This document shows positions 4,559-63,100 of a stretch of 64,000 bases of DNA, in pieces. The notes beneath the pieces were generated by a model. It had not been told where the DNA came from. It did not search any database and saw nothing but the letters and a program-made list of their open reading frames with translations. Source of the DNA: Candidatus Omnitrophota bacterium (lineage in GTDB: Bacteria > Omnitrophota > Gorgyraeia > Zapsychrales > JANLHA01). Within the stretch, counting starts at the first letter, position 1; each line of letters starts with the position of its first letter. Location: NCBI GenBank assembly GCA_038222225.1, contig JBBRHV010000001.1, forward strand, positions 13,864 to 77,863, written 5' to 3'. A program made the position numbers and the translations under genes.

Positions 4559-4576
4559 TTTTATAAGAGGGGAACT

Positions 4577-42100: not shown

Positions 42101-45100
42101 GTTCCCGGCTAAAGAGAGAATTCCTTACGGACGCATGTTCTCCGAAGGCAGAATGTATTATCTGTATACCTCCAAAGATTATAATGTTCATCCGAAGGTT
42201 GAGAACGAAGATGTCTACGGCTTAAGCATTCAGGTCGTGGATGCCACGGGCAAAGTGGTCCGTGATGAGCCGATCAGAAACCAGGGCCAGCTTAAGACTA
42301 TGCTCGGCGTTGGCGTTGAAGGGGTATTTAAGCTTTTTGAATTAGGGGCCAATGCCGATAACATTTATGTGACGATGGATGATAAACAGGTCTACGCGGT
42401 GGAATTAGGCGACACCAATGAAGCGATCAAGAAAGACAATCTTCCGCCGATACGGGAAGTTTCGGTCCGTCTCCAGCAGGATCCGAAGCCCGAACGCGTT
42501 GAGCAATTCGGCGACACGTTGATGAAGGCCGGCACGGAATATAAGATCTCCGTTGAAGACTTAAATAAATGGGTCCAATCTTTAAAAATCGAAGGATTGA
42601 ATTCAAAAGAGACAGCGGAATTGCTGGCCAATGTTAAGAAATTCGACGGCATTTCAAAGCACCGCACAGCAAAATCAGAGGCTGCCAATAAAGCGTATGA
42701 GATCTTAAAGAAGATGCAGGAGAACGCAGGCAAAGCAGCGTTCAATGCTCATGCCAAAGCTTTCAACCAGGTCATGCGCTCTCTGGCAGACCAGGACGAG
42801 AAGATGGTCTCGATGAACTCCTTAGAGCGCGTTCTGATCCTGGTTGCCCGCGACAGAGCCGCGGTCAACAACGAGACCGATGATGACGGCAGCAAGTTTA
42901 TGGCGTATCTCAAAGCGGAAGCCAAAAAGTACGGGTTCGGTAATGTGATCAAACGTGAGATCGCCGCCTACTTCGGACGCGCGACCGCTTCGATCTTAGG
43001 TAAGCCGGAGTGGCATAACAAAGAGATCGCTCAATTAGGCCAGGCCATCGATCGCAATATCAATCTGCAGGATCCGAATTTTATCTCCGCTGCTGACGCC
43101 TATGCATTAGACACAGAAGAAAAGCCGATCGGAGAGCGCATTCAATACATTGACAATCAATTAAACGGTTATACGGACGCAAATGGTGTCGAGCATGTCG
43201 GATTAAGTACGCGCAGAACACAGTTGGAAACGATCCGTGATACACGCGCTTGGGAGAATCCGGATGAAGAAGTGGATCTGCTGTTTGATTACGCAACAGA
43301 AGTTGTTCCGGGGATCGAAAGAAACCGCGCGCAGCTGCGGGAACTGCAAAACAACTCCTTGGGTTACTGGACGAGAGAAAATCAAAGAGCCCAAGCGATG
43401 CTGACAGACAGAAATTATGGAGGCGAATCGTATCGTGCGTATGTGACCTATACCCAGTCGATGATTGATATGGTAAATCGGGAGATCGCGCTAACACGGC
43501 AGGCATTAAGGATCCTCGAGCGGCACCAGAATGTTTATGTCGCGTTAGGTCAGAACGGCTATCAAGCAGCTGGATGGCAGAGCGCAGGCCGCTTGGTTCA
43601 GGATCAGATCGATATGGTTAATACGCAAATTAGCATTTTCAACGAACAGCGCACCATGCTGGTTGACGCACAAGAGGCCGGCACCATTCCTAATTTCAAG
43701 AAACTGAGATTGATTCCGTACAACCGCACAGATGACCTTCCGAAAGATGTCAAAACAATTCCTGAGACGTTTACCTGGTTAAGAGGCGAGCGCGATGAGT
43801 TCGGCAACCAGACTTCAAATGGACGCATAGACAATATCGCTAGAGATTACCAATACTTTACGGATGGTATTTTGCACACGTCAGGTCCGGACGGCATTTA
43901 CAGTCAAGACGTCGTCAATCTGGCCCGCGACTTCCAGAGAACATTGAGAGATCCGGATTATCAATACAGCAGAGGCGCCTGGCTGGATAATACAACCGTG
44001 ATTTCCGAATACGCATTATATAACGATCCGGAATTCGGGCTGCTTACTCAATTAAGCAGAGATACCGCTCTTCAGAACGGCACCTCAACGGAGACGCCGT
44101 TACAGGTTTTGGAACGCCAGCTTGCTTATCAGAGAAAATTGCAGCTCCTCTATCAGACCCGCGCCGACCTCCAGAATGATATGGCAGCCTTGATCGAAAG
44201 CGGCAATTACTACAGGACGCCGGAGATCGCCAATCGCATCAACAAGATCATTGATAATGAGCGTACATTTGCTTTAAATTCATTATCAACGGTTGAGAAA
44301 TTCAGCGGCGCCGGTAATTCGTTGCGCGAAATGAATGAGGCCTTAAGCAGCTTAAATGACGCCTTGGTCATGGAGCTGAATGAGAAGGCAGAGCTCAGCC
44401 AATACGCTCAGGCCGTGGAGGTGCTGGTCAAACAGGTTGGCAGCAACTTAGAGGATTACAGCAAGGCTTGGACGCAATTCAACGATCAGTTGCTTGCTAT
44501 ACGCGCTCAATTGGTTGCCAAGGTTCGGGCCAGCAACCTGGCCGAAACCGTGAAGCTTGAAAAGATCAAGAACATTGATCTGTTCCTGGCTAATCTTTCC
44601 GCGAAACACGCGCCGCAAAAAGATGTGTATGTGGCCGGTCGATATTTTGTTTACGGTGAGTCAGCTGGAAAAGACGCCATGCGCACCTCCGGCACCAACG
44701 AATCCGGAGACGTGGGTGCAGTGAAAGTGGCGCAGACAGGCGATTTCGCCACATACCGTCAGTTCAATTTAAGAGATGTGGCCAGCGGCAACATGATCCA
44801 TGTCGGCCAGGTTCAGTCAGCTGCTCCCGGCGCTGCTCAGAATTCTTATGCTGTCGGAATCATCAACCTGACGCCGGAAACTCAAAACAGCTTGTTCAAT
44901 ATTGGAGTTGGCCCGTCAAAGAGCTATCGTTATCTGCAGAGCGCTGACCCGGATAAAAAGGGTAAAGGCATGACCGAACACGCTGGATTGGTTTTCAGCG
45001 ATGTTGCTATCAGAGATGGAAAATTGACACTGACAGCCAGCGGCATCCTGAAGGCCAATGTCAACGGCGACAATGGAATGACCGGAGGCGTGACGGCCGG

Positions 45101-48100
45101 CGCATATTATCAGTTCAACGATCGCACCCAGGTCAAGCTTGAAATGGGTGTTAGCGGTTCCGGCCGCACAACAGATGCAGAGCTTACGGCGATCGACACA
45201 TTCACCGGAAAGCAAATTTTCAAGGATACCGTTAAGATCAATAACACCGACTGGTTTGATTATCAGAAGATGACCTTTACGCATGCCTTGAATAAAAATT
45301 TGTCGCTCCGCTTCTCCGGAAGCCGTGAATTTGAACAGGGCGCCATGGGCATTGCCGAAGATGTGACATCCTATTTTGGCACAATCGGGGCTGATTGGAA
45401 ATTCGGCGATCTTCTCATGAAGGACGACAAACTTCTGATTTCAGCGGATTATGGGTTTAACGCCAACCGTGAAGCCGGCGATCGCACTCGTCTCATGCTG
45501 CAGTATCAGCAATTCTATACCTCTGTTGGCATGTTCGGCGAGGCACTGTATTACAATGCCGGCATCAAGTTAACGGATTCCTTAGTCGCTGAATTCGGCC
45601 AGCAGAAGACCGGCGATCTTTACGGACGTTTAGGATATGATCACAGCGGTTTGCGTTGGGATGCCGGTCTTACTGGTCAGGGCCAGGTCAGCAGCGGATT
45701 AAAAGTAGACCTTTTGAATATGCCTGGATTCCTGACCAAGCTCTTTAAGATCGAAACACCGGAAAACTTCAAGATGCCGGAACTGCATACCCGCAAACTT
45801 CAGACATTACAGGAGAAGATCATCTTCGCTCCGTTGGCAGAGGCACAGCATCAGACGGTCCAGATGAACGTTAATAAGACGGAAGCCACCAAAGACATCG
45901 CTAAATATACAACGCTTGTCAACGCAGTGAATGGACATGATGTGATTCCCGGCCAGCATGCCATTGCCGCTGACATCAAGATTTTAACGGATCCGAATAT
46001 TTCAGCCGAGGCGATGCCGCTGTACGGTCCGTCACCATTTGGATTAACACAGGCGGATAAGACGTATACAATGCGCTTTGTTGATCTGACACCAGAACAG
46101 CTGACCAAATACGGCATCGGCAAATATCCGAAAGAAGAAAGATTCTACATCCGCAGCACTTGGATCGATGCGCAAGGCCGTACGCAATCATTCAGTCAGG
46201 AATTTGCCGCGCAAGGCCTGGTGATCTTAACCGAGAACATTGACAAGTTAAGCGTTGAGACTCAGAAGGCGCTGGGCACATACCGCAACATTATTCCGGT
46301 CAAGCTCACCAACGCCGGTTATGAAGCGACCAAGGACGCACGCTTCGGAATGGTCGCCGGGCAGACGATCACAGCTGAAGATTTCGCTCTTTGGCTAGAT
46401 AACACTGTTGATAATGGAACGATCTCAAGCCGCGTGATGAGCCAGGTTGATCCGAAGACCGGCGAACCGGCACGTCAGCTGTTCCTGGCCAAAGACGGCA
46501 AAGTCACATCCTTAGACCTTACGAAGGAAGGGTATGATGCGATCGATAAATACACTGAGAACAAAATTTTGGTTCCTGTGGAAAGCGGATTAACAGTATA
46601 TTTGACCGGTGCAGAAGCACTTCAGTGGATCTTGGATGGCAAGTTGATTTATATGAAAAATATAGATCCTAAGATTGACGCTACACATGTTTTAGCAACG
46701 GCTGATGGGAAATTAGTCGGTTACGGTGATGCCATTGTGAAAGGAAAGTATTTGGTTCCGGAAATCGAAGCGTTTATGAAGGACAAGGTCTTGGTTCCGT
46801 TAAAGGGCGTCCGGTCTTCAACAGCTTATTTAACCGGAGCAGAAGCACTTCAGTGGATCTTGGACGGCAAACTAATCTACATTGAAAATACAGATCCTAA
46901 TATTGATGCTACACATGTCTTGGCAACAGCTGATGGAGAGCTGGTCGGTTACGGAAATGCTTTGATTGACGCCGGTTATATGATTCCGGAAGTTGAAGAA
47001 TTCATGAAAGACAAGGTTGGAGTTTTGACCTCCGAAGGAAGCCGTTACTTGACAGTTGACCAGTTTGAAGCGCAGAAAGAGGCTTTGGATGCTGCTTATC
47101 GTCCGAATGCAGAAGGCAAGATGATCCTTTCAGTCCCGGCTCCGAAGCAGACAAAGTTTAGAGTAACCACTTTCGAATCTGAAGGAGAAAAATATGTCGG
47201 CGTCAAGCTTCCTACAGAGATCGAAAAGAGAAATAAGGCGATGGATGACGGGCGGGCATATTTTGAGAACGGCCAGTTCATTATCCAGGATGCCGGCAAT
47301 GAGGCCAATCGTATCGTCGGCACCATAGCCGGAGAAAAATTGCTTGAACCGGCAGCTTATGTCACAAAGGCGACCGTGCCGCAGATGAAGTATAAAGAGG
47401 GAGAACAGGTTTTTGTTAAGGGTAAGGGTTATGCATATTATGAGAAAACATTGACCGGGAAATATGAGCCGACCGCAAAAGTGATCTACAACGCCGAGAA
47501 AGACGCAAAGGTTCCGGGTTATCTACCGCTCAAGAGAGTTGTCGTGATCTTACCGAACAGAGCAGCGCAGATTGAAGGGGAACTCCTCTTGAACAAATTC
47601 GGAGCAGTGGAAATTAGCTCGATCCAAAAGAGATATTATTTTGTTATCGGTGAAGACAAAGTAGGCGCCTATGTTCCAGTTGATGAATTGGTCAACCGAC
47701 GCTCAGAATTTATAAGTAAAGTTCAAGAGATCGTTCGATATGGCGACACCTTAGAGCGAATCTATTTGGATGCCAGCGCAGCTGACGGTCAGGTGGATGA
47801 AAACGATAAAGTCACGATTGTACGCAGCAACAGCCGTACTGACATTTACCGATTAGGACAATATACTATCGACGCCAGTGGAAAACTCACCTTAACAGGT
47901 GATCCGATCGGCGAAGACCTTCTTCTTGCTCCTGAGGCGGATGGTTCGATTAAGGCTCAATTGATATATGGAATTCAGCCGTTCGTGATCCCGGCTGCGG
48001 AAGTTAAAAACAACACATATCATTTGAACAGAGATTTCTATTATCAGAGAGAAACCATCAATGTCTATAATGCTGAAGACAAGCAAATCCGACAGATCAT

Positions 48101-51100
48101 GCCGTTAAGCGATACGATTATTTATTTATCGCCAAAGGATGGTTATGCAACGCATGTGACAGATTTGAGCGGCAATCTCAGAATTGTTTCTCAGACAGTC
48201 GAACGAGTGGAGAATGGCGAAAAGGTCGTTGAGACAACAGATGTTCAGGTGGATGGGAAGAACAATGGATTCGCAATGGTCAAGAGGACCACCTATAAGA
48301 ACGGCGCATTGCGCGAGATTTTGGTCGGGGTTATGAAGCTTGCCAATAAATATGATCTGAGCCAGCCGTTCCCGACAGTTAAGCCGGAGATCTTCACGCT
48401 TAGAGATTCTTATTCTCAATCTGAGCGCAGAGTTGATATTCGAACCAACGGCGAATGGCATGAAGGATGGAGAATTTATGGAAAGATCAACAAGCATATT
48501 CAGCGGTTAGAGGCTCAGCAAACCCGGACAGTTGAAGAGGATCGACAGCTTGCAGCATTGCGACAGGCGCAGACATTTGTGGATAAATTCACTCCGTCGA
48601 CTAAAGAGGCCTTAGATGCGCTGGCTGGAAGAGGAATTCAGCTGAATGTTCAGTTAAGCCCGAAAAACAGCGTTGCTGTAAACAAAGACACAGTTCTTAC
48701 GCCTACGGTTGTGGTGTTCCCGAATCAGGTTATATCCATTGATTGGCGCTTAGATAACGATATTTTAAATCGCAAGCTTATCACTGTACGCGCAGCTCAG
48801 GGCCGTATTGTAGAGATGATTGTCGGAACCGAATTTGATCAGCGAAGCGGAGAGGTTACAAAGACGTATACATTGACATCCGACGCCCAGATCAAGAGCC
48901 GGTTTGAAACAGCTCCTGCTCCGGAAAGAGCTGACAATATCTTTACTGGGCTCATTGTTAAGAGCTTTGCAGAGGTTGCGCATAAGCGATTCTCGGATGA
49001 GACCGCTAACCTGTGGAAGTTCTTAGAATATCATGGCGTGTCTCAAGCAACGCCGCTGACAGTCTTAAAAGAAACACCATATTTACCGGATGAAACCGGA
49101 AGATATACAGAAAAAGAAGGCGCAGCAACAACGCATTATCTGATCCCGGATGACAGCCGCGGCCGAAGCTTGACTGTGGTTTATCCGACTGAAGATCAGA
49201 GTTTGAACTTATGGCAATTTGAAGGCCGGGAGGTTCGCATAACCAATGGTAAAGAGCGAAAAGTGACCTTCGGCGTCGGCGTCACTCCAGGAAACATCAC
49301 ATTTAAGAAGGACGGAAGCTTGCGCGGTATTGAAATCTATCACACAACCGTGCGCGAACAGCAGATCAATATTTCCTATACTCAAAAGGTCGTGGAAAAC
49401 GGCACGACTCATGAACGCGAATATACTGTTACGAAAGAAAAAGACGGGGCGCTTAAATTAGTGGTTAAGCAGGATGGAAACACGATCGCTTTAGCGGTTG
49501 GAAATGAATATGAGGTCCTGGACTCAGGCTTAAAGAAGAATGTTTTCTTTACACAGGGCGGTCAATTATTAGCAGAGAGCCATCAAAAGGTCGTTGGCCA
49601 GATCCTCAAAGAGATTTTGGGTGTTCAGGTTCTCGGCGAAAAGATCACGATCTATGATGTTCTTTCACCGTATAGACGTCCAGTGTTCTCGTTCGATCTG
49701 GAAGGCAATCTTGTAGACGAATATCTGGAGCAGGAGTTCAGCATCGGCGAAGAAGTGAAGCTTGATGGAACAAAGACATATGTTCAGAAAACAAAACTCC
49801 GCGTTATAGAGCCGGAAGGATACGCGCCGGATAAGAGGTATGAACAGGAATATCATTATACCGGCGACAAGATTGATTCCAAGGCGCGCCCGGGTCTGTG
49901 GCAAAAGTGGGCGGAAGATTCGTCTTCCTGGATGAATATTTCTAAATTGTGTGGCTTGTTTGTCTTCCTTGCTTTCGGTGTCGGCAGGCTTTGGTCCTGG
50001 ATCGGAAACATTGTCCGCTGGATCAAAGGTGTTAGAAAAGGTAAGACTCAGCCGGATTCAATTACACTGCAGTATACGCCTGAAGAGATCGAAGCGGTTC
50101 TTGAAGCGATCAAGAATCTGCCGGATTACGGATGGCAGTCTGGCATTGCGGATCAGGCCCGGGAAGCCGTTGGGGCAGAATTCAAACGAAGATTGTATGC
50201 CGGTGAGCGTGTGGAAGATATCGTGAAAGACCATTTCAGTTATTACAGAAAGAACTGGTTTATACCGGTCATGGGTAATACGAAGGATAAGGATGCGATC
50301 CTAACTGCGGATGAATTTAAAGCTCAGCTGGCTGAGATCGATGCCTATGGCGTTAAAGAAATGTACATCAATTCTATGACAAAGATCGGAGCAGATAAGC
50401 TGTCTTATGTATCTCTCTCCACGGGCGCTGCATTGTTCTGGATCGCTATGCAGAGATATAAAAAGGCGAGAGCTGATGGAGATAAGGTTGACGCGCCTGA
50501 CGCGCCGAGCGCTACCAATGCGAGCGTCAATCTCGGACATGAGATTGAATTTAAACATGTTGGAATATTCTCTAAGTTATTGACTCTTCATAATGGAAAG
50601 TCAAAAAGTGAGGCCATTCATCATGATGATATTGATTTGTATTTCAGGACACCAGGGTGGTTGAAGCGCTACATTACGCAAGACGATGATGGAGAGACGG
50701 GTAGAGATATCATTGCAAAAGAGGTTGCAGATCAGCTCTCTGGGGCTAAAAAGGTTGGAATCAATGAGATTCTATTGAAAGCCTATCCGGATGTCAAGAC
50801 CGGGTGGCGTGGTATTAAAGGACGGGCCCGTATGCTTACGACCATCTTGAAATATCTCAATGTCATCGTAGGGATAACCGCTATAGGGAGTTACGGGTTG
50901 GTTTGGAGCGGAACATTTTCATTGTCTGTGGCGATTTCTGCCAGCACTTTGGCCTGGTTGGGCGGACTTGTCATCTTCATTGCATTGTTGGTCGCGATCA
51001 ATTTCGGCATAAGATTTGCCGATAAAAAATGGCAAGAAAAGCTGACGTTAAAGGAACAGAAAACTTGGGATACAGTGCCTTTGGATGCAGGAATTAAGCC

Positions 51101-54100
51101 AGAAGATTATCCGAAAGGAACCAATGGACGCAACTGGCGGGCAAGGATGATTTTTGCCATTATTATAGGTATGAAGCTCATTGCGGGTCTTTATATGTTC
51201 AAGTGGTTATCTGTACCAGTTGGCATTGCCTGGAAAGGCACTGTGCTCTTGCCGGCAGTTCTGGGCGGAGGCACGTTGATCGGCGGAAACTTATTGATTG
51301 TGGGTCTGTTTGGAGTCGTTTTTGCTGGGATATTCCTGCTGGATATTTTTGCCTATTTCTATCTGGTCGAGACGGTGCTTGGGACTTGGATCGCCCGTTA
51401 TCAAGGGATCAATCGCGTGCATAGCTGGAGACGCAACTCGCTGAGCGAAGGCGCTTGGATGCTCTCTCTGTTTGGATTGCTCAAATGGGTCTTGCCGGTC
51501 AACGCCGCTCTTATTCAGCAGTATCTTTTGCTTGGTATTGGATATGTTGTTAAGAGCAGCACTGTCATTGCCTTCTTCAGTACACCGGTAGGCGGGGTCG
51601 TTATGGTTGTTGGTGTGGTCATCTTGCTATTGGCTTTAAGGGCTATTGTAAACGCAATTTTAAGTTCAATGGGATTTGAACGCATTGGGGGCGATACGTT
51701 TGTAGAAATGTTTGGTAAAGCGCAGAAACAATTTGCTAATAAAATTCTTCCGTCTTCGGTGGTCCGGCCGGATGGCACCAGGGCGGCATTGACAGCGCGT
51801 GAAAAGTTTGTGGCCTGGGTCAAGGCGTGGAACATGATCGTTCATCAGATGAGAGAAGATGATATTATCGGCGATGAAGAGGAGAAGAGATTAAGCTATA
51901 AGTTCACAGGAGAGTCTGAAGAGGATTTCTTGGAGATCACAGGTAAGATCACAGGGCCGGATCTGACGGTTACACCTAAAGACGGACGCGCACGCAAGCG
52001 CCTGCAGCATTTCATCTCTACCTTATTTATGGATATGGAGCAGACCCCGATTTGGGAGAGAATGTATTTGTTCTCTGCTGTGTGTCCAATCTTTGAAGAG
52101 CCGAATATGTATCCGTTTAAAGATAAGTCGGTTGGGGTTTACGATGCTATTAATGAAGTATACAAGACAGGAAAGACGTTCTTGACGCATATTATTTCAA
52201 AGGTTCCGCATCAGTGGCAGTATTTTATTCAGCGCATGGAAGACAAATTGCAGATTTTTACAGAAGAAATGACTGAAAAAGCAAAGACGAATCCGAAGAT
52301 CACTCAAGACATGATCGATGAGGCTGTCAGTCGTAAGCGGGATGATATTGCGGCCATGAAGGCGCTTGGTATGGGTCAGAGGCTGGTGCTTAAGGATACC
52401 GAGATGATCAATGAGGTCCGGGCCTGGGTCAGCTACCGCTTCCAGCCGTTCTCCCGTACAGCGCGCGGGATCATGACGTATCATCAAATGTATGAGTTCC
52501 AGGCTAAGGTCAATTATCCGACCGCAGAAGCTCTGAATGCCACACAGAAGATCCGGGGTGAGAAGCCGGAAGAAAAGAAGAAGAGTTACGTGCAGCGCAT
52601 TATAGACATTGTTAATGAGAAATTTGAATTTGTGGTTGGGGATTTTGTTTACGGGGGTCATCGGAATGGTACAGACGGATCTCCTGAAGCCATGCTCAGA
52701 GATGATATGCATGCGCTTATGGCCAAGTTCCCGGGAGGCATTAAGCTTGTGTATTGTGCAGCTCCAGATAAAAAGAACCCTAATTATGCACCAGTAAAAG
52801 TTGAGTATTTTGCAGGTGTTCCGACACAGGAAGATCGGGATGCCGGTGTGATTATGCATGAGTATGAGGATGAATATACTCATCAAATCACCGGATACTT
52901 GAAACAGGTCCGCGCCTTTAATATTCATAGTTATTTCTTTGCCGGCCAAGGAAAACCGGTCAACCAGAATAACATGTTCCGTTTCACCAAAGGTGAGATC
53001 ACGCAGATGATGGATATGAACCAGGATATGTATCTGGAGGAGACGTTTAAGGCGCCAAGCATGATGGAAGAGTTCCGTAAAGATCCTAAGATCGCGATCA
53101 TAGGGTTCCCTGAAGATATCTTTACAGATTACTTCAGCCCTGCCGGTGCTGTCCACGCCTTCGGAGATCGGACATTTGTCACCATGGTTCAGAGGGTCTT
53201 AGAGTTTATGGGGATCCGCTTCCATTACGGGCATCCGGACTTTGTCCGTACCAATGCCTTTAGACAGCTGGGCTTATTGAGCGCGCCGTGGGTGAACGAA
53301 GACATTTTTGGCGCGTATAAAGCCATGCTTTATGGGCAGAAAGTGATCAATCGCGAAACCATGCAGGCGGGTAAAGCGCGGGAAGCTATGTATATTGCTT
53401 TGATCGGTATTTCAGAAAAATTCGGCGCCGGCGGATCTGAACAGCCGTTGACATATATTGTTCAGCTCCTTAACCGTTCAGGCATTTTCGGATTTGCGCA
53501 AGGATTTATGCATGTGGTCGCGTCCATGGGTTATTTCTTGCGCAAGGAAGTCATCGTTCTGACAAATAACAACTATATTTTGATCCTCCTGTTCTTAGGG
53601 GTGAGCGCGTTTGCGGCCTTCCCGAACGAGTTGACATGGGGTCTGATTGGTTTATTGATGTCACAGGCCATTACCTCTACCGGATGGGCTCAGGTCTGTA
53701 TCGAAGATGGGTTGATTTTAGGAACTATTCGATTTATAAAATTGTTCCCGTCTTTGGCCATGACATACATGTCTTTGATTTATAACGCTTTTGCTCCGGG
53801 AAGCAGAAAAGCGTATGTGAATCAAGCCGGCTATGTGGCAACAGGTCGGCCTCCGGGGCTTCAGCACATGTATCCGTTCAGGCCGACGAACCATATTCTT
53901 GTTAAGTTAAGGGTCATTGCCGGCGATCTTTATGGACATGTAAACTTGAGCGGATATGCCTGGGTGGTTCCGATGGTCGCGATCTTAGTGAGCGGCCTTA
54001 TCTTGTGGCTGAATCCTGGTCAGGTGTATTCATTATTCTTTATTATGTTAATCCTGTCCAGTATGTTTGCTCCGTTTATCCTGAGCCCTGGTTCTACACC

Positions 54101-57100
54101 GATCACCATGGGTATCCGCCGTTGGTATAAACAGCATTTCACGGATGATGTTCCGAGATTCTTTGAGAAGATCGATAGTTTTGGGAAGGAGGACACCATT
54201 AAAGATGTCCTATTTTCTGGGAAAACCAAACCTGAGCCAGCTGGTTTTGAAATGAACAAAGAGTTCAAGAAAAACGGAGTACAGCATGTAACAATTAATG
54301 GCCAGGATCTTACAGTCGGAAAAGAGGTTTTAACGGTAATGGATGTAAACGGAGTTTCTGAACCGACCGGCTATAAGGTTAAGGAAATATTCAAGAATAA
54401 GGTGGTTCTCGAAAAAGGAAAAGAAGATTTTATTGTACACAGAATGAATGCTTATTATGGAGCCGCCAGAATAGTAATAGTGGCAGTTGTAATAGGAGCG
54501 GTGTGGCTTATTCCGGGCAATTACCTTTATATAGGAATTATTCTCTTCAGCATTTTCTACCTGGGGTTAGGCTTTGTTTCAGATGCCAAGAATCTTTGGG
54601 CTAAGATCTTAAAACTCAAAAATATTCAGAAGATTCTGAACCATCCAAAAGTTAAAAAGATCCGGGATGATCAAGCAAAGAAAGCCAAAGAGCGTAAGGA
54701 TGAGCTAGCAAACGGCAAAGAGCGCTCAACAGCTGAAAAGGTTCGGGATTTTCTGACATTACCGAAAGGTAAAACTTTACGGGATATTATTAATCTTTAT
54801 ATGACAGGCATCATTGTCATGTTGATGTTGACCGCGTTGGGGGTTGTTACATCGGTTATTGTTGCCGCTCCATATACGGCCGGGTTGTTTATTCGTGCTC
54901 AGATCAAGTTCTTACGTCTGCCGTCTTTGGCGAAGTTTGTCGGCTGGTCTTCTCTTGTTATTTGGCTAAGTAAGCTGGCTGTTCCGGCAATCTTATTATA
55001 CACAGGCGGGTTTGCGGCATTTTTGGCCGTGGTTGGGTTTGAGGTTATCATCGGATCCTTCGCATCAGGGCTGTTCACCGGAGAGGCCGAGGATGCACAA
55101 TTGGCCTTAGATATTCGTTCGCTCCATGAGGAAAAATCTCAGAGTGTAAAGGGTACAAACAGCGCGGTCTTGGCTAATCAGAAGAATGACGGCAAGAAAG
55201 ACCTCGCCCGCACTGAAGACGGCGAGGCATTGAATGACGGACAAGAAGCTTTCTTAAGAACATTGATCGATCAATATCAGGATCAGATCGCCGCGGGTGA
55301 GCCGGTCGATGCTGCGGTCATTGAGAAAATTGCCGCTCTCCTCAGAGAGCAAGGGTATGTTCATGTTGCCAATGCTCTTCTGAGTAAAACCGTTGTCCGC
55401 GGGCCTCCGTCATTGTTTACTGATTTTGAAGAAAGCATCCATAGAGTCCTTCTGGGTACTATCACAGGGACTCACATCATCATCAATCCGATGATCCTTT
55501 CTCATCCGGTGGAATTAGCCCGCACGATCATTCATGAAGCGGGTGCTTCTGCCGGGTTGTCCCATAACGAAAATAAAGAACTCGAAAAATTAGCGCATCC
55601 GCTTTTGGTGGCGATCGACGGCCTCTCAGCAACAGGGAAGTCCGCCGTTAGCGGTTATTTAAGCAAAGACCTCAAATTTGTCAATATCTCCATCGGGTTG
55701 ATCTACCGTTTCTTCGCCGCATTTATCAAACAATCCAATTTTGCGGTGCTCAGCGATCTCGAATTTGAGCAGCTCCGCGAGATGGCTGAAAAGATCAGCT
55801 ATGTGAAGAATGAAAACGGCGAGTGGAATTTTGTGGTTAACGGTCAGGTGATCAACAGCAATGATCCGGCGTACTTTAATCCGGAAATTGAGAAAGCACT
55901 CAGCGAGCATCTCTCCAAAAAACTCCATCCGTTAGTCCTTCCGGTGGCCAGAAGAGTTATCCGTCAGGTTTTGGCCAGCGGTGAGAACGTTGTTGTTGAG
56001 GGTAGGATTGCCTGTGATTATATCGCTCCATTTGCTGATGTGAAATTGAATATTGTTGCAGAATATTCTGTACGCGCGCAGAGACGGATGGAGCAGCGCA
56101 TCGCGCAGCATGGCATAGAGAAAGCCTATATGGATGCCATAGGCACCAAGAACGCGGCAGAATACCAGCAACGGGTGAGAATGGTCGCCCATGAAATTTA
56201 TGAAAAAAGTGGGCATAAGCCCGGGAATGACCTGGCCAATTGGGCGGAGGCGGAAAAGAGGGTCAGAGCTGAAATGGCTTCTAAGATCGAAGAGGGAGCA
56301 AGGACAGTGGAGGCGGAAAAGAGGGTCAAAGCTGAATTGGCTGCCAAGATTGAAGAAGGATTGCGGAGACGCGATAGAAAAGATCAGGAACATTTACCGA
56401 AAGCGCCAGTTCAGCCCGGTAATGTTGTTGAGATCGACACAACGCATGCCCATGGTTTGGATGAGACCATTAGCAAGGTTCAGAAAGTTATTTCTCAGGC
56501 CTATCTCAGCGGACGAACAGGCCTCAGCCCGCAAGTCGCAGAGGTGACGCAGCAATTAGCATCTTTGAAGGCAGGCGAAGCTATTCCAGAAAGCTTGAAA
56601 CAGGCCATTTTGAAGGTCTTGCCGGTGATCGGTGAATTGAGCGAAGCCAAGATCGTTCACACGTTCCGCAATCTTGAATATCTGCACAGATTAGCAGCGC
56701 AGGATTTTGATTATTTCTACGATCACTTAAGCGAGCAAGAACGCGCCACGGTTGAACGGGCAGAATATGTGGCAGCGTTACAGAGCATCTATAAAGCGTA
56801 TGCAGCGTTAAGCGCACAGGAAAAAGAAGCGTTATGGCTGACTGTCGCGCTTCATGACATCGGATATATCCGTGTTAAGGACCATACCCACATGAGAGTC
56901 GGGGCTGAGATGGCTCGCCCGATTTTGGAAAACATCGGATTGAACCATGAGCTGATCGACCTTGTGGTCTTTACAATCAGCCAGCATGGTTCTATCGGAA
57001 ATTTGGCCCTGGGTGAAACAACTCCGAAGACAATGTTAAAGGCTTTAAGCGCCGTCAGCCCGGCTCTTCGGGCTGGACGTGCCCGGTTTGTCCGCCTCAT

Positions 57101-60100
57101 GAACAGCATGGATCTTTGCGGGTGGCATGTTGAAGAAAGCCGCTTGACGCTTTATTGGCAGAAGATTTTTGAACAATTCAGCTCAATCGCTCAATTAGAA
57201 GCCGCGGCACAGGCTGGAAATTATCATACACATCGTTTAGAGAAGTTCGCCCGCACAGAATTCGAAAAACAAGCCACACCGGAAGATCTTGAGAGATTAA
57301 ATCAGACTATCGAAAAATTAGTTTCTGAAGATGAGCGAGAACAATTCTATGCATGGCTCAATTCAGATATGTACATGGATTATTATGAGCCTATTTTCTG
57401 GGGCTTAAATCAAGGTGATCCGTCATATGTATCGCTGGTTAAGTTATTAAGGACATATTTCCACATTACAACTTCATTGAACGGGAAAATGCCAGAGCTT
57501 CGTCTCTGTGAGATCACGACAACCTTCCGGGAAATTTCTTCAAGTATGAAACGGCAGTATATTATTAAAGAACTGAAGGCGATTTTGGCGCTGATGCCCG
57601 AGCAGTTCACATTGAGTGATGCTACGGTCCATTTGTCAGGCAATAACTGGGTCCGGTTCTTTGGAATTCCGCTGATTCTGAGGGGCCAGTGTCTTGTGAT
57701 CGACTTCCAGTATCTTCACTTCCGTGTTTTATTGTTCAAGCTGCGCGAAAGAGTTGGTCTCAAGCGCGGGTTCTCCCGTAAAACCGGATGGCAGGTTGAA
57801 GAAGCGGCCATGGATTTCACAGGCCAGCAGCCGCTTGTTGAATCAACATCGGAAACAGCGATGGAACGCGCGCAAAAAGCGCATACGGTTATCAGCTGGA
57901 TCTACAGCAGCCATGAAGCCTGCAAGGCATTTGTGCAGTATCTTCGCGGATATGCTGTTGGGCACACATACCGCAATCGATTGATGCCGTTGTATTTTAC
58001 TGTTTATAATTTCTTGGCAGGCCGGGCATTGAACGACCGGAGGGTCTTGTCTGCGGTCGAAGCAGATTTGTTAAAAGGCAATGTCACAGTTCATCATCAC
58101 GCATGGTTCGGAAGCGATGATGTGGCGGTATCCAGAAGTAAACATGGTTCAGCGGTCAATGTGGCTCAGCCAGCTAAACGCACATTCCGTATTTTGGTTA
58201 TGGGTTGTGCCGAGAAACCGAATGGGCGCGGATCGTTGGATGTCCTGAAAGAGATCCTGGACAGGCTGCCGAACCGGTCTGAATATAATATTGAGATCGT
58301 CGGAAATGACATCGCCTTCCAGGAAGAGTTTTACGCATTCAATGACAAAGGGACATGTTTAGGAAAGCGCCATACGCGTTTTGAATTTGATGAAAACGGC
58401 GTTTTTGTTGACCCGAATTCCGGGATCAGGTATGTCCGTATTGATATTACGAAACCGGAAAACAATCTGTTAAGTGGAGAATTTACGCCGGACAGCGGGT
58501 ATGATGTTGTCATCAACTCAAGAATTGCAGTTCAATATGGGGATTACCCGGATAAAGTCGAGAGCATCAGAAAGAATTCATTGAAGATTATTAATGAAGG
58601 CGGGCTGCTCCTGTTTGATACGCAGGATACTGACCATGCCGAAGTTTGGACAAAGGGAAACAACGGCGAAGCAATTCAAATTGGGTTTGCTGTTCCGTAT
58701 ATTGATATTTGGTCAGAGAGCAAGCGCGTTGAGAAGATCCTGGCTCGTATCTATGATGTCAATGGGGAAGATGCCGAACTTGTTCGCCAGGCATTCCACA
58801 TGAGGCTCGCATTTGCCGGGACACAAGGTTTAGTATTCGCGAGGAGCATCCTGGCTCAATTCTTGGGGATCTTTGGGGAGCAGCCGATTGCAATTGCGGC
58901 ATTCCTGTTGCGCGGGATCAGTATGGAAGCTGTTCAAGAGGTTTTTGGAGAGCAAACAGCGGCACAGATCGCGGCGATCAATGGGCTTATTCCTGCAGCC
59001 GATGAAGTCGTGATCTCAAGGCAAGCGTTGTGGGCATTTGAGAATTTCAACAGCCTTGAGCATGTGGAGATCCTTCCGGCCAACGTCGGCGTATTGGAGA
59101 ACCGTCAGATGTTGTATCGTGACGGGTTGTATCAGATTGAAGCTGCTACCGTCGGTGAAAAAATGGTTTTGATTATAAGCAAAGTTACGCCGGAGCAAAT
59201 CACATCCAAGATCATTGCGTTGCATGGTGAATATGCGGTTAAATATCAGAAAATGATCGGTGCGACAAACAGCGCGGTTCTGTCAAGCCAGAATGATGAG
59301 AGCAGCGCCAAGGTCATGGATGCCGATGCATGGGCACTTGATGCTAAGAACGTGTTTGAAGATGCTATCCGTAGTCTGATCGCTAAAGCCAGCCAGATCA
59401 TTCGCTGGTTAAAGATCAGACTCTATGTGACAGACCGTAGCGACAAAGTAGTGGCTAAAGAACAGCAAAGAGTTGAAGAGATGCCGTTAGCCGCAGCCGA
59501 ACCTCAGAGACCGAATCGCGTGGGTTCAGTGGTTCATACGTCAAGTTCGCATGAACAGAATCCGAACATGGCTGTTTGGAGACAGTATTTCGAAGGCAAA
59601 CTTGCGGCAGGTACAAACGCAGCTGTTTCCGCGCCTGACCGCATGGGCAAAACAACTGCCGATTATGAAGCTGAATTTGCTGCACGGTTCAATGATGCAA
59701 CCGACGCTGCATGGCAACAATTCCGCGCCGCGGTTGAAGCCAGCCCGGCTGATTATGCTCCTGTCTGGGTGAAGATTTTAGAGAAGGCAAAAGCAGGTAA
59801 GTCGGTGGAAACCGGTAAAGTGGTTGAGTTTGGAAAAACAGTTGAGTTGGTTGAGTTGGGCAAAGCAGTTGAGTGGGCTGGATCAAATGCAGCGGTTAAT
59901 TTGGTAAAGGCAGAAGATGTAATCGTTCGGTTTGACCGGTTCGCATTCTGGGTTTATGGCGCTACTCAATGGCTGAAGATCGCGCTTCATGTGACCGATT
60001 ACAGCGATCGGGCCGTGGCTAAAGAACAGGTTCGCGTGGAAGAGTCCCAGCTTCAACCGACCGGTCCGCCGGTTGGCTCCATGAATGTTAATCGTTTGAG

Positions 60101-63100
60101 TCGTAAAGGTTCAGTGGTTCATACATCAAGCTCTGATGTGCAGAACCCGAACCTGCCGGTTTGGAGAGGTTATTTCGAAGGCAAACTCTCCGCAAGCACT
60201 AACGCCGCCGTTCTTTCATCTGACCGCATGGGCAAAACCTCCGTTGATTATGAAGCTGAATTTGTTGCACGGTTCAATGATACAACCAACGCTGCATGGC
60301 AGGAATTCCGCGCCGCGGTTGAAGCTCATCCGGCAGAATATTCTTCTGTCTGGACAAAGATCGCAGAAAAAGCAAAAGCAGCCAAGGCGCAGGCAGAAAA
60401 GCCGGTTGAGTCGAAAGGAACAGTTCAAACGGTTGAGTTGGGAACGGCAAAAACTCTAAACGCTGCGGTATTATCCCGCCGTAATTTCATTCAGAGCATC
60501 GCGGTTGCAGGTGCTGCGATTTTAGCCGGCGGATGCGCTTCGCCTACGGAAAAAATGCTTCGCGGATGGTCCAATCTTTCCATTGAAGAGCAGCGCAAAC
60601 AGATCGAGGGTATGAAGGCGATCGCCAGTGAATTTAAGGCCAAGGATACCCGTGAATTTCTAACAGAACCAGCTTTGAGGTTCCTGGAGACTCAAGCCAA
60701 GATTTCACGTAAAGACGCACTGTCTATTCGCATTCTATTCACGTCTGATGAGATGTCATCGGTAATCGGGGTGTCGACTGACGCAGGAACGATGACGCGC
60801 GCGAAATTGGGAGAATTAAGGAATCGTTTCTTAAGACATGTTCCGTCAATGAGGGCTGAGTGGCAGGAAGCCTTTGATCTGATGGAACAAAATATTTTTG
60901 ACGGTCGGGATGTGGTGGTTGTTCTCAGGGAAAGTTTATTTGATACAGAGGCCTTGGATGACTTTAGAATTGCTCAGGTTGTTCACGAAGCTGTGCATTG
61001 GGCGCAATTCACGTTCCGCAGTAAAAAGATGGGCCTGTCCTTCGGGAGGGGTGCTGAAGAATATCTCGAGCTTGAAATTGAGAAGGAAGCCTACGCGCTG
61101 CAGATGCTGTATTTGGCAGGGCGCGGAAAAACCTGGGCAACAATAGCCGTATTTTTCGCCGGAGATGCTCCGAGCGGAAAGGCGGAGGTTGACGGGCCTT
61201 TGGCCGCGGAATTTGAACAGACCCGGTTTGGGCACGGATTGAAACAAATTTGGGATACGCGCGTTGCGCCGAAACTTTCGTCGGGTAAAGCGGTTGAGTC
61301 GGAACCGACCAATTCCGCGGTAAGCACATTTGTAGTACAAACCAAAAGTCCGGTGCTAGGTACACAGGGACGAAACCAAACCGTCAAAGACGGTCAGTTG
61401 TTCAATGTCACGCAGCGTTGGCTAGAGCCGCTTGTTGATGAAGGGGCGACAACAGGCGATTCGCTTGAAGCCAACGCTGCGGTGACGAACTATTTTGAGC
61501 GTTCTTCTGACAGCATGACCTTCTCAGGAAAAGGGCGAGTTGTTCCGGCAAGAACGCGACAGCTTCCGCAGACAATTGAAGAAGATATGCTGCCGGCCTT
61601 GCCGGCCTCAAGTTTACCGGAAAATACGCCGGTGCGCGAGCTTCCGGCAATCCCGAGCTTACCAATAAACATTCAGTTGATCGTGCCGGTGTTTGGCGGC
61701 GCTAACGGAAATGGAAATGGAAAAAGAAGAGGTGGTCCGTATTCGATGATCGCCTTTGCCAGGACATTGGGCGGTTCACGCGCGAATTTAAGAGCTCCGC
61801 GCAGCTTGAATGCTGATAATTTTGGAAAACGACATTTGGTCAATTCGGCTCTAAGAGCCTCAGGCCGTAATTTTGCTTCAACAGGTTTGAGTGACGTGGC
61901 GCATGGCTCAAATGGCGACGATGCTAATAGCGCTGTTACAAATAGCGACGAAGATTCGGATGCAGACGCTGCCACGGGTGCGTCCAACGTCGAAGGTGTG
62001 CGCGCGGTAAGAGAGCGGCGGTTCAATGTGGCTTGGTTGAGTTCACGTTCATTTGTCGCTGAACATAAGGATGGAACATGGGCTATTGTTTTTGAGGACG
62101 ATCTATTTTATGGCGTGGTCGGCAACACGATGCTCGACACTGTTAAATTCCTCCAGAGTGCCGGATTCAAGAACGCGATGGTGGTGGATGCGGGCAGCCG
62201 CGGAGCGTTTACCGCCAAAGGAAAAGAAGGGGCTCTCTTTAGTGAATCGCGCGTTCCGGGCAAGGGGCCGTACACATATTTGAATGTCCTGTCGAACCAT
62301 GATTTCCCGAAGACTCCCGCACCGTCACAGAAACCGGTCGGGAAAAATCATGCCGTACTCCATGGCGGTCAAAACGAGAAGCGAAAATCAGCTGCTGCAT
62401 TCAGCAAGGGCGCAGCAGTCATATCCGGGACCAACGCTGCTTCACACAATCATCACCGGAATAAAGGGTCAAAGGATAAAAAGGGGATTCAGGCTAGGGC
62501 AGTTTCAGATAAGAGATCATCAGCGAATAATCCTCGAAACATGGGTCGCCGCAACTTTATCCGAAATGCACTGTTGGCGGGCGGGGCCGCGGGACTTGGG
62601 TTTGGCGCCTGGTTCTCCTTGCGAGGACGCGCGTTTGATCCTCTGTTCTGGAAGGCCTTTGGTTTGAAGAAGGATCTCGCGCTGTTAATAAAGTATTTGG
62701 AACAGGTCGGCGAATGGTTGCGTTATAACGGTTATGCGCACATGGATGTTGTTGAAGCGTATCTTCAGGCCGTCCGTGAAAAAGCCGAAGTCATTGATCT
62801 CAATATCGGAAGTCAGGTTTTTGGAAAGGCCGAGGATCCTGTTAGCGGAGACATTCATATTGAATTGAATATCGGGTCATTGTTCCGTATGGCCGAAGCG
62901 GTTCAGACCATTTCTAAAATCGCCCAGCGTGAGCAGGGGGCTGGCGCCGCAAACGATACGACCATGTTTGTGCAGGTGATTGTTGAATCGTTGGTCCGTG
63001 AAGCCTGGGGTTATGACCTGATGGTGCGCAACCGTCCCGGACGCAAGCAGTTCGTGAACGTCTTTAATGATCTCCGGCTAAAGATTCAGGAAGCGGACCG

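What the first reader, a model, noticed from the sequence alone, without database searches (positions are those of the whole stretch)
50850..55070. Complete FKS1/callose-synthase-like GT48 glucan-synthase module, with flanking TM bundles, embedded in a bacterial megaprotein
Several of the most conserved Fks1 motifs are present with correct order and spacing: IDANQDNYLEE, ILGAREYIF, KLHYGHPDF, NEDIYAG...GG.I.H.EY.Q.GKGRD, KIGAGMGEQ. The module has the Fks1-like topology of a multi-TM N-bundle, a roughly 530-aa cytoplasmic domain and a multi-TM C-bundle. GT48 is essentially a eukaryotic (fungal/plant) family. A near-full-length copy inside a prokaryotic giant protein is unexpected. It suggests either horizontal acquisition from a eukaryote or an ancient bacterial GT48 lineage. 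Functionally it could synthesise or bind a beta-glucan, perhaps at a host or prey interface.
Basis: partly seen in the sequence, partly recalled or inferred. Interest (0 to 1): 0.9.

Follow-up and report, generated by a model that had tools for sequence, protein, structure and literature searches.

The report
Bacterial Fks1-like glucan synthase in giant protein
A bacterial protein of more than 19,000 amino acids contains a probably active copy of the enzyme that fungi and plants use to make beta-1,3-glucan, and the same module recurs in giant proteins of at least two bacterial phyla, although this enzyme family is treated as eukaryotic in the papers I could search.

Summary
The core observation is real, but the quoted motif strings are yeast Fks1 strings. 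The window holds diverged equivalents: MDMNQDMYLEE, IIGFPEDIF, RFHYGHPDF, NEDIFGAY, QAGKAREA, KFGAGGSEQ.

The region lies in one stop-free frame (6084 to the window end, at least 19,305 aa). It matches Pfam Glucan_synthase at 172.7 bits against a cutoff of 37.2. An AlphaFold model (pTM 0.81) has Fks1/Fks2 as its 13 best PDB matches.

The Fks1 catalytic positions are kept in the window and in 49-50 of 50 bacterial relatives. These are K1082, D1102, N1104, E1221 and D1222.

The last four transmembrane helices (54456-55034) could not be tied to the Fks1 fold.

The module is native and recurrent. Its codon usage matches the rest of the gene. 19 species genomes carry it, in Omnitrophota, Elusimicrobiota/Endomicrobia and bins labelled Planctomycetales, nearly always inside giant open frames.

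In a neighbour-joining tree, bacterial and eukaryotic sequences separate with 98/100 bootstrap support. Recent transfer from a fungus or plant is therefore unlikely, but the root is unresolved.

No paper I could search reports this. The product (beta-1,3-glucan?) is inferred only.

The parts
6126..63998 (+). Giant ORF, at least 19,305 aa and truncated by the window end, that hosts the module. First ATG codons are at 6126 and 6138.
   Evidence: The frame is stop-free from 6084 to 63998 and start candidates are listed. Pfam finds Peptidase_C39 (nt 6795-7046), GNAT (29409-29708), Peptidase_M23 (39933-40178), Glucan_synthase, a cytidylate-kinase-like domain (55608-56120) and HD (56814-56987).
50121..50672 (+). 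Putative diverged FKS1_dom1-like (Fks1 accessory-domain-like) soluble domain, giant aa 14680-14863.
   Evidence: hhalign of a 14-sequence bacterial profile against a 17-sequence eukaryotic N-terminal profile gives prob 97.2%, E 2.9e-11, aligned to P0090 residues 255-441. Pfam FKS1_dom1 in P0090 is at 332-443. A reversed-template control gives no hit. A query restricted to the soluble part gives the same register at prob 71.6%, E 3.5e-5. The Pfam HMM itself does not detect the domain.
50949..51650 (+). N-terminal transmembrane bundle, giant aa 14956-15189, with about 6-7 hydrophobic segments. It includes the TM5/6-like stretch with the FLLDIFAYFY motif (nt 51333-51362).
   Evidence: The segments come from a Kyte-Doolittle scan. 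phmmer aligns aa 15072-15117 to Fks1 676-721 (domain 1, weak). hhalign matches aa 15008-15109 to callose synthase 660-762 at E 3.4e-5. This part of the model has low pLDDT.
51975..53603 (+). GT-A catalytic domain, the Pfam Glucan_synthase match at giant aa 15298-15840. Functional motifs:
- F15337/E15339 (equivalents of Fks1 Y849/E851) at nt 52092-52100
- GQGKPVNQN at 52944-52970 (K1082/N1085 equivalents)
- MDMNQD at 53010-53027 (D1102-x-N1104 equivalents)
- HYGHPD at 53223-53240
- NED at 53295-53303 (E1221/D1222 equivalents)
- GKARE at 53370-53384
- GAGGSEQ at 53424-53444
   Evidence: The Pfam match is and the alignment to Fks1. The residue roles come from review PMC12715860. The positions are invariant across 20 bacterial modules and kept in 49-50 of 50 bacterial-type sequences. 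This region of the model is mostly above pLDDT 90. Coordinates were checked.
53496..54146 (+). Conserved C-terminal transmembrane region, giant aa 15805-16021. It carries the Y-x-x-TGR motif (nt 53832-53858) and the APF-x-x-x-P motif (54066-54101), both shared with callose synthases.
   Evidence: The core alignment with eukaryotic GT48 extends through these motifs. TGR is invariant in the 20 bacterial modules. Conservation with the loci ends at about aa 16021-16040. Model pLDDT here is mostly 80-90.
54147..54455 (+). Poorly conserved linker or insert, giant aa 16022-16124.
   Evidence: There is no BLAST conservation with the loci and pLDDT is below 50.
54456..55034 (+). Four further hydrophobic helices, giant aa 16125-16317. 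Whether they belong to the Fks1-like C-terminal bundle is not established.
   Evidence: The helices come from the Kyte-Doolittle scan. A short block at aa 16230-16370 is conserved in some loci. The model is low-confidence and Foldseek coverage of Fks1 does not increase.
3701..5458 (+). Two T2SSF (TadB/TadC-like) platform genes immediately upstream of the giant gene. They give locus context and are not part of the module.
   Evidence: Pfam T2SSF matches at E 7.9e-18 and 6e-12. Tad/T2SS-like loci next to Omnitrophota giant genes are described in West-Roberts 2023 and Seymour 2023.

Best explanation
The region is a genuine, native and probably active member of glycosyltransferase family 48, the family of fungal Fks1 and plant callose synthase. 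It is built into the membrane-spanning part of a giant protein from an Omnitrophota-like bacterium.

Shown:
- Homology to GT48.
- An Fks1-like fold, with a GT-A catalytic domain inserted between two transmembrane bundles.
- Retention under purifying selection of the residues that bind UDP-glucose and catalyse transfer in Fks1: K, N, D-x-N, E-D and GK-x-R.
- Recurrence of the module in giant proteins of Omnitrophota and Elusimicrobiota.

Inferred:
- The catalytic domain faces the cytoplasm and takes UDP-glucose.
- It adds glucose processively to a growing beta-glucan chain, most likely beta-1,3-linked, as in all characterised GT48 enzymes as far as I know.
- It threads the chain through a channel formed by its own flanking helices into the periplasm or cell surface.
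- There the polymer could form or anchor the coat or attachment matrix that these small, host-dependent bacteria build together with the extracellular parts of the same giant protein.
For: - Pfam PF02364 matches at 172.7 bits against a cutoff of 37.2. The same domain scores 226 and 205 bits in the Endomicrobiaceae and Ca. Zapsychrus relatives.
- phmmer against Fks1 PDB chains gives E about 1e-21, with motif-by-motif alignment.
- The AlphaFold model has pTM 0.81 and a catalytic domain mostly above pLDDT 90.
- Foldseek ranks 1-13 are all Fks1/Fks2, down to E 8e-25 with about 1,000-1,200 aligned columns. GT2 processive synthases (BcsA, CesA, HAS, Chs) follow.
- The functional residues named in review PMC12715860 are present in the window. 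In 50 bacterial-type sequences the counts are K 50/50, D 50/50, N 50/50, E 49/50, D 50/50 and GK-x-R K/R 50/50.
- An FKS1_dom1-like domain lies upstream, in the order expected for Fks1.
- GC content and synonymous codon usage are native; the module ranks 9 of 16 tiles.
- 19 species genomes carry the module, 17 of them within open frames that run off the fetched locus at one or both ends.
- 788 representative clusters match, 111 of them at E <= 1e-30.
Against: - There are no biochemical data. The sugar donor, the linkage and processivity are extrapolated from eukaryotic GT48.
- The Y849 equivalent is Phe in the window, although this position also varies in eukaryotes.
- The N-terminal bundle is poorly modelled and has two or three extra hydrophobic segments relative to Fks1. 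The topology and the channel are therefore not demonstrated.
- Pfam covers only profile positions 3-510 of 819. The last Fks1 helices (about TM13-17) have no established counterpart.
- Fks1 needs Rho1-GTP for activity, and no equivalent regulator is known here.
- I did not check whether the genome makes UDP-glucose.
Confidence: 0.62

Rival explanations
1. The module is an active GT48-fold enzyme with a different chemistry. It might make another polysaccharide (a different linkage or sugar), or glycosylate a lipid carrier or the giant protein itself, rather than make beta-1,3-glucan.
For: - Identity to eukaryotic GT48 is only about 28% in the core.
- The residue after the catalytic Asp differs: M or I here, A in fungi.
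- The Y849 equivalent varies.
- The fold is shared with GT2 synthases that make cellulose, chitin and hyaluronan.
- Giant Omnitrophota proteins carry many other sugar-metabolism domains.
Against: - All characterised GT48 enzymes make beta-1,3-glucan. One paper's text describes a diatom enzyme loosely.
- The donor-binding and catalytic positions are the same as in Fks1.
- Plant callose synthases also have D-M-N, so that difference does not imply a new chemistry.
Confidence: 0.22
2. The module is a decayed pseudo-enzyme. The giant protein retains it only as a membrane anchor, a scaffold or a glucan-binding element.
For: - Most of the giant protein lacks recognisable domains.
- Part of the TM region is poorly modelled.
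- A second, very divergent Omnitrophota clade has lost HYGHPD. This shows the family can drift.
Against: - The catalytic K, D-x-N, E-D and GK-x-R are invariant or nearly so across 50 bacterial sequences. These sequences share as little as about 30% identity with the window, which is the signature of selection on catalysis.
- Even the divergent clade keeps K, D, N, E and D.
Confidence: 0.08
3. The GT48 sequence is eukaryotic DNA, either an assembly chimera or contamination. Alternatively it is a very recent transfer from a fungus, plant or alga.
For: The GT48 literature I could search treats the family as eukaryotic. The best named non-bacterial hit is an orchid callose synthase.
Against: - The module is in frame within 57.9 kb without a stop codon.
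- GC, GC3 and synonymous codon usage are typical of the rest of the ORF.
- The same arrangement occurs in 19 independent genomes, including a complete 1.84-Mb Endomicrobiaceae chromosome.
- Identity to any eukaryote is only about 25-28%, against 40-60% to bacterial relatives.
- The bacteria|eukaryote split has 98/100 bootstrap support.
Confidence: 0.02

Closest known systems
Fungal Fks1/Fks2 (beta-1,3-glucan synthase catalytic subunit, CAZy GT48; PDB 7xe4, 7yuy, 8jzn, 9wy1, 9wzs)
   Same: - The Pfam family is the same.
- These are the best structural matches, with about 1,000-1,200 aligned columns.
- The order of parts is the same: accessory-like domain, TM bundle, GT-A domain, TM bundle.
- The ED motif, D-x-N in place of DxD, and the K/N/E donor-binding residues are the same.
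   Different: - Identity is about 17% over the structural alignment.
- The motif is D-M-N rather than D-A-N.
- The accessory domain is detectable only by profile-profile comparison.
- There are extra hydrophobic segments before the GT domain.
- Counterparts of the last helices are not established.
- There is no Rho1 partner in bacteria.
- It is not a free-standing protein of about 1,900 aa but an internal module about 14,700 residues into a polypeptide of at least 19,305 aa.
Plant and protist callose synthases / chrysolaminarin-type GT48 (for example P0006 orchid callose synthase 7; Cyanophora and Pavlovales homologues)
   Same: - These have the closest motif forms: DMNQD, G-x-GKP-x-NQN, Y-x-ATGR, APF-x-x-NP.
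- Core identity is about 28%.
- The FKS1_dom1 region aligns.
   Different: - The eukaryotic proteins have a Vta1-like N-terminus and a full C-terminal bundle.
- They form their own clan, with the split at 98/100.
- The bacterial versions have NED where most eukaryotes have SED, and GK-A-RE where eukaryotes have GK-G-RD.
Giant 'Archaeovorin'-type / multi-enzyme proteins of Omnitrophota (West-Roberts 2023 bioRxiv 10.1101/2023.11.21.568195; Seymour 2023 PMC10066038; 2026 preprint 10.64898/2026.06.07.730766)
   Same: - The ORF is enormous.
- A C39 peptidase sits near the N-terminus.
- There are many TM helices and scattered enzyme domains (GNAT, HD, peptidases).
- A Tad/T2SS-like locus lies upstream.
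   Different: These papers report GT1, GT5 and starch-synthase domains. Neither the main texts nor the one supplement held mentions a GT48/Glucan_synthase module. No SecA-DEAD domain was found in the part of the protein visible in this window.
Bacterial GT2 processive synthases (BcsA cellulose synthase; CrdS-type curdlan synthases by general knowledge)
   Different: The sequence family is different, with no GT2 Pfam hit. The motif is D-x-N instead of DxD. No PilZ or c-di-GMP module was detected.

Membership tests
CAZy GT48 / Pfam PF02364 Glucan_synthase | Significant match to the family profile above the curated threshold | tested here: met
   172.7 bits against a gathering score of 37.2, E 1.5e-50, profile positions 3-510 of 819. 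Relatives score 226 and 205 bits.
CAZy GT48 / Pfam PF02364 Glucan_synthase | Fks1-type three-dimensional fold: a GT-A domain inserted between two TM bundles | tested here: met
CAZy GT48 / Pfam PF02364 Glucan_synthase | Catalytic ED motif (Fks1 E1221/D1222) | tested here: met
   N-E15739-D15740 is present. E is kept in 49/50 and D in 50/50 bacterial-type sequences.
CAZy GT48 / Pfam PF02364 Glucan_synthase | D-x-N ('DAN') motif in place of the GT-A DxD (Fks1 D1102-A-N1104) | tested here: met
   D15644-M-N15646 is present. D and N are kept in 50/50 sequences. The middle residue is M or I, as in plant and protist enzymes.
CAZy GT48 / Pfam PF02364 Glucan_synthase | UDP-glucose-binding residues (Fks1 Y849, E851, K1082, N1085) | tested here: met
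   E15339, K15624 and N15627 are present. In bacterial-type sequences they are kept in 48/50, 50/50 and 42/50. The Y849 equivalent is F15337 in the window, and this position also varies in eukaryote-type sequences, where Y occurs in 25 of 39.
CAZy GT48 / Pfam PF02364 Glucan_synthase | N-terminal accessory domain (Pfam FKS1_dom1, PF14288) before TM1-6 | tested here: inconclusive
   The Pfam HMM finds nothing even at E <= 5. hhalign aligns aa 14680-14863 to the FKS1_dom1 region of callose synthases at prob 97.2%, E 2.9e-11. A restricted query gives 71.6%, E 3.5e-5, and a reversed control gives no hit. The evidence leans positive.
CAZy GT48 / Pfam PF02364 Glucan_synthase | Full C-terminal bundle (Fks1 TM7-17) forming the glucan channel | tested here: inconclusive
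   Homology extends through the TGR and APF-x-x-x-P motifs to aa about 16021. Pfam profile positions 510-819 are unmatched. The four further helices are poorly modelled and add no coverage.
CAZy GT48 / Pfam PF02364 Glucan_synthase | [quoted passage not shown] | not testable with these tools
   This needs enzyme assays and product analysis.
CAZy GT48 / Pfam PF02364 Glucan_synthase | Activation by Rho1-GTP (fungal Fks1) | not tested
   This is a regulatory feature of fungal enzymes. No candidate partner was examined here.
Omnitrophota-type giant membrane proteins | ORF of tens of kilobases with many TM helices and a C39 peptidase near the N-terminus | tested here: met
   The frame is at least 19,305 aa and stop-free. 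Peptidase_C39 lies at aa 238-321. There are 37 hydrophobic segments in clusters. This agrees with the description.
Omnitrophota-type giant membrane proteins | SecA DEAD-like domain (present in most, per West-Roberts 2023) | tested here: inconclusive
   There is no SecA hit at E <= 0.01 in the 19,305 aa visible. The ORF continues beyond the window.
Omnitrophota-type giant membrane proteins | Adjacent T2SS/Tad-like locus | tested here: met
   Two T2SSF genes lie at 3701-5458, directly upstream.
GT2 processive synthases (BcsA/CesA/Chs/HAS) | Match to a GT2 or cellulose-synthase sequence profile | tested here: not met
   Only PF02364 and a sub-threshold Ctr hit were found at E <= 1. The similarity to GT2 is structural only.

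The most novel reading that the evidence does not exclude
GT48 is not a eukaryotic invention. A deep and diverse bacterial GT48 lineage lives inside the giant surface proteins of host-dependent Omnitrophota and Elusimicrobiota. On this reading, the eukaryotic beta-1,3-glucan synthases (Fks1, callose synthase, chrysolaminarin and paramylon synthases) descend from a bacterial gene of this kind. That would give the antifungal target Fks1 a bacterial outgroup and a bacterial model system.
Probability: 0.28. Interest if true: 0.85.

Novelty: new variant of a known kind. Interest (0 to 1): 0.72.

Why it matters
- **Family origin.** GT48 makes callose in plants and the main wall glucan in fungi, and it is the target of echinocandins. 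Published GT48 phylogenies that I could read contain only eukaryotes and are midpoint-rooted for lack of an outgroup. A diverse prokaryotic lineage with the catalytic site kept supplies sequences to root that tree. It also reopens the question of where the family came from.
- **Experimental system.** It could provide a bacterial system for structure-function work on the Fks1 mechanism without Rho1.
- **Giant proteins.** It gives the enigmatic giant proteins of Omnitrophota and Elusimicrobiota a concrete, testable biochemical activity. The prediction is extrusion of a beta-glucan at the cell surface, possibly part of the 'coat' or the attachment matrix used on host cells.

Tried and rejected
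- A genome-contig scan with single-sequence patterns found no relative. The alignment-based scan succeeded.
- The search for homologous proteins with the 20-sequence module alignment returned nothing. It was swamped by 8,000 word-sharing candidates, probably from TM-rich words, and the search was wasted.
- An 86-sequence alignment failed internally.
- The afdb50 fold library was unavailable.
- NCBIfam has no model for the module. This fits the 'hypothetical protein' labels in NCBI records.
- Pfam and PDB sequence searches of the conserved upstream region (aa 13701-14949) found nothing. Only profile-profile comparison did.
- There are no tRNA or Rfam hits in the window.
- Contamination, assembly chimera and recent eukaryote-to-bacterium transfer were considered and rejected.
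- The pseudo-enzyme reading was considered and judged unlikely.
- Literature searches for GT48 together with Omnitrophota, Elusimicrobia or giant genes, and for a prokaryotic origin of callose synthase, found no prior report. One supplement could not be read.

Full report
**1. What is in the sequence**

The window has a single stop-free frame on the + strand from 6084 to 63998. It runs off the 3' end and encodes at least 19,305 aa. Likely start codons are ATG 6126 or 6138.

Two T2SSF (TadB/TadC-like) genes lie directly upstream, at 3701-4558 and 4577-5458.

Pfam finds few domains in the giant protein (coordinates checked):
- Peptidase_C39 near the N-terminus
- GNAT
- Peptidase_M23
- Glucan_synthase
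- a cytidylate-kinase-like domain
- DUF2934
- HD

Hydrophobic helices occur in clusters. Together this is the published portrait of Omnitrophota giant genes: huge ORFs, an N-terminal C39 peptidase, many TM helices, scattered enzymes and an adjacent T2SS/Tad-like locus.

**2. Check of the observation**

They are the yeast Fks1 versions. The window has diverged equivalents in the same order:

| Motif in the window | nt coordinates |
|---|---|
| GQGKPVNQN | 52944-52970 |
| MDMNQDMYLEE | 53010-53042 |
| IIGFPEDIF | 53097-53123 |
| RFHYGHPDF | 53217-53243 |
| VNEDIFGAY | 53292-53318 |
| QAGKAREA | 53364-53387 |
| KFGAGGSEQ | 53418-53444 |
| YVATGRPPG | 53832-53858 |

The formal tests are unambiguous:
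- Pfam PF02364 Glucan_synthase matches at E 1.5e-50, 172.7 bits against a cutoff of 37.2.
- phmmer against PDB sequences hits only Fks1/Gsc2 chains at E about 1e-21.

Its letter-by-letter description was recalled rather than read.

**3. Anatomy**

The module has these parts, in order:
- An N-terminal bundle of about 6-7 hydrophobic segments lies at aa 14956-15189 (nt 50949-51650). It contains an FLLDIFAYFY stretch that aligns with the conserved TM5/6 region of GT48.
- A soluble domain of about 600 aa follows. The Pfam match covers aa 15298-15840, nt 51975-53603.
- A conserved C-terminal membrane region extends to aa about 16021 (nt 54146). It carries the Y-x-x-TGR and APF-x-x-x-P motifs, which plant callose synthases also have.
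- Next come a non-conserved insert and then four more helices at aa 16125-16317.

A second AlphaFold model that includes those four helices is poor there, with pLDDT 28-72. Their membership in the module is therefore open.

Upstream, a region co-conserved with the module in the relatives has no Pfam or PDB sequence match. Profile-profile comparison aligns aa 14680-14863 (nt 50121-50672) to the FKS1_dom1 region of callose synthases:
- The full bacterial profile gives prob 97.2%, E 2.9e-11.
- The Pfam position of FKS1_dom1 in the template was verified.
- A reversed control gives no hit, and a restricted query gives 71.6%, E 3.5e-5.

It follows the Fks1 order of accessory domain, TM bundle, GT domain, TM bundle.

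**4. Structure**

An AlphaFold2 model of aa 14890-16060 was built with a 40-row alignment. It has mean pLDDT 78.8 and pTM 0.81, and the catalytic domain is mostly above 90.
- Foldseek against the PDB returns Fks1/Fks2 as ranks 1-13. E-values run from 8e-25 to 6e-16, with about 1,000-1,230 aligned columns and query TM-score up to 0.55.
- BcsA, CesA, hyaluronan and chitin synthases follow.

**5. Is it likely to be active?**

The Fks1 review lists the ED motif (E1221/D1222), the D-A-N motif (D1102, N1104) and the UDP-glucose binders Y849, E851, K1082 and N1085.

The window has E15739/D15740, D15644-M-N15646, E15339, K15624 and N15627. The Y849 equivalent is F15337.

| Fks1 position | Kept in 50 bacterial-type sequences |
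|---|---|
| K1082 | 50/50 |
| D1102 | 50/50 |
| N1104 | 50/50 |
| E1221 | 49/50 |
| D1222 | 50/50 |
| GK-x-R Lys and Arg | 50/50 each |

These 50 sequences share as little as about 30% identity with the window. The Y849 position varies in eukaryotes too. This pattern indicates selection on catalysis and argues against a pseudo-domain.

**6. Native and recurrent**

The module's GC (0.466), GC3 (0.529) and synonymous codon usage fall in the middle of the distribution for the rest of the ORF. It ranks 9 of 16 tiles.

A scan of one genome per species found the module in 19 genomes:
- Omnitrophota, including Ca. Zapsychrus exili
- bins labelled Planctomycetales or Planctomycetia
- Elusimicrobiota: a complete 1.84-Mb Endomicrobiaceae chromosome, Ca. 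Proruminimicrobium and Ca. Endomicrobium embiratermitis

In 17 of the 19, the match sits in an open frame that runs off the fetched locus at one or both ends, giving 813 to more than 7,500 aa of visible frame. The two exceptions have frames of 2,470 and 2,776 aa. In Ca. Zapsychrus the ORF overlaps a preceding 3,010-aa ORF by 26 nt, which looks like a split giant gene.

The exhaustive search of 1.84 billion cluster representatives found 788 matches, 111 of them at E <= 1e-30. Many of the best are proteins of 2,300-7,900 aa with the module deep inside. Those that carry names are Omnitrophota or Elusimicrobiota 'hypothetical proteins'.

**7. Evolution**

I built a neighbour-joining tree from 490 core columns and 97 sequences. 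Bootstrap support from 100 replicates:

| Grouping | Support |
|---|---|
| All eukaryote-type sequences against all bacterial-type | 98/100 |
| Endomicrobia clade | 98/100 |
| Very divergent second Omnitrophota clade | 100/100 |

The eukaryote-type set includes an orchid, Cyanophora, Protostelium, Pavlovales and unnamed relatives (labels).

Mean core identity to the window:

| Group | Identity |
|---|---|
| Window's own clade | 51% |
| Endomicrobia | 39% |
| Eukaryotes | 28% |
| Divergent Omnitrophota clade | 26% |

The bacterial motif forms (DMNQD, G-Q-GKP-x-NQ) resemble plant and protist enzymes rather than the fungal DANQD.

These results exclude a recent transfer from a sampled eukaryotic group. 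They fit a deep bacterial lineage. The tree is distance-based and unrooted, and eukaryotes are under-sampled because only the best 150 hits to a bacterial query were available. Giant-protein domains are also reported to evolve fast. The direction of an ancient transfer therefore remains open.

**8. Mechanism (inferred)**

By analogy with Fks1, I propose the following. The GT-A domain sits on the cytoplasmic face and binds UDP-glucose. It transfers glucose with inversion to the non-reducing end of a growing chain, using D15740 as the base and the D-x-N and K/N/E residues for donor binding. The polymer leaves through a channel between the flanking helices.

In a diderm bacterium the chain would emerge in the periplasm. 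Further export is unknown.

The same polypeptide carries large, presumably extracellular stretches. Carriers are thought to be epibionts or predators with a 'coat'. A surface or attachment glucan is therefore the most economical role.

Nothing here tests the linkage, processivity, regulation or localisation.

**9. Novelty**

The papers on Omnitrophota giant genes report GT1, GT5 and starch-synthase domains and many others. Neither their main texts nor the one supplement held mentions Glucan_synthase or GT48. The West-Roberts supplements could not be read.

The GT48 evolution papers I read consider only eukaryotes. Searches combining GT48 with these phyla found nothing.

The proteins are already public and carry a precomputed PF02364 tag. 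The fact is therefore discoverable in databases, but it appears undescribed. I rate it a new variant of a known kind: a bacterial GT48 lineage embedded in giant proteins.

**10. Limits**
- The organism of the window is not identified. Its closest relatives are Omnitrophota at 40-60% identity.
- The TM topology is not established.
- The phylogeny is simple neighbour-joining.
- One profile search was wasted.
- The AFDB library was unavailable.

Noticed in passing
window 55608-56987: Directly downstream of the GT48 module, in the same ORF, lie three domains: a cytidylate (NMP) kinase-like domain (Pfam 72.9 bits; NCBIfam cmk 70.8 bits, below its cutoff), DUF2934 and an HD domain. These are nucleotide-handling domains next to a UDP-releasing transferase. 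Only one relative (L016) shows the kinase-like region nearby.
   Followed up: partly
window 48681-50120 (giant aa 14200-14679): This stretch is co-conserved with the GT48 module in many relatives (BLAST blocks start at aa about 13774-14283). It has no Pfam or PDB sequence match, and I did not model its fold.
   Followed up: partly
window 36702-40178: A dense cluster of about 10 hydrophobic segments (giant aa 10207-10767) is followed by a Peptidase_M23 domain (nt 39933-40178). This may be a second membrane-embedded unit with a peptidoglycan endopeptidase.
   Followed up: no
window 6795-7740: A Peptidase_C39 domain at aa 238-321 is followed by four hydrophobic segments (aa 370-552). This matches the N-terminal layout reported for Omnitrophota giant proteins.
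   Followed up: partly
window 14-3265: A 1,083-aa ORF upstream of the two T2SSF genes has no Pfam match. Its frame is open from base 2, so the gene may begin before the window.
   Followed up: no
window 52197-53156 (- strand): A 319-aa antisense ORF (GTG start) lies entirely inside the GT48 catalytic domain. It is most likely a chance open frame opposite a conserved coding region.
   Followed up: no
proteins P0084, P0115, P0060, P0052, P0057, P0149, P0081, P0106: A second, very divergent GT48-like clade (100/100 bootstrap) contains proteins of up to 6,932 aa; the two members that carry source names (P0084, P0115) are Omnitrophota. HYGHPD has become FYGH(G/S)A and the Q-D of DxNQD is lost, but K, D, N, E, D and GK-x-R are kept. 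It may have a different specificity.
   Followed up: partly
L015 9050-17380; L021 1-22238: In Ca. Zapsychrus exili the GT48 ORF (2,761 aa) overlaps a preceding 3,010-aa ORF by 26 nt. In metagenomic locus L021 the GT48 gene (2,330 aa) sits in a run of abutting co-directional large ORFs without Pfam hits. These are either giant genes split by frameshifts or sequencing errors, or a true operon form of the same system.
   Followed up: partly
proteins P0067, P0069, P0070: These unnamed metagenomic proteins (1,000-2,100 aa, filling 5-7-kb contigs) group with Cyanophora GT48 (96/100) inside the eukaryote-type clan. Their organisms are unknown, so the bacteria/eukaryote boundary in the tree rests partly on unlabelled sequences.
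   Followed up: partly
window 1-64000: GC skew is positive in every 2-kb tile (0.03-0.25). AT skew changes sign at about 8 kb, near the start of the giant gene, and again within the GT48/TM-rich region (about 50-56 kb).
   Followed up: no
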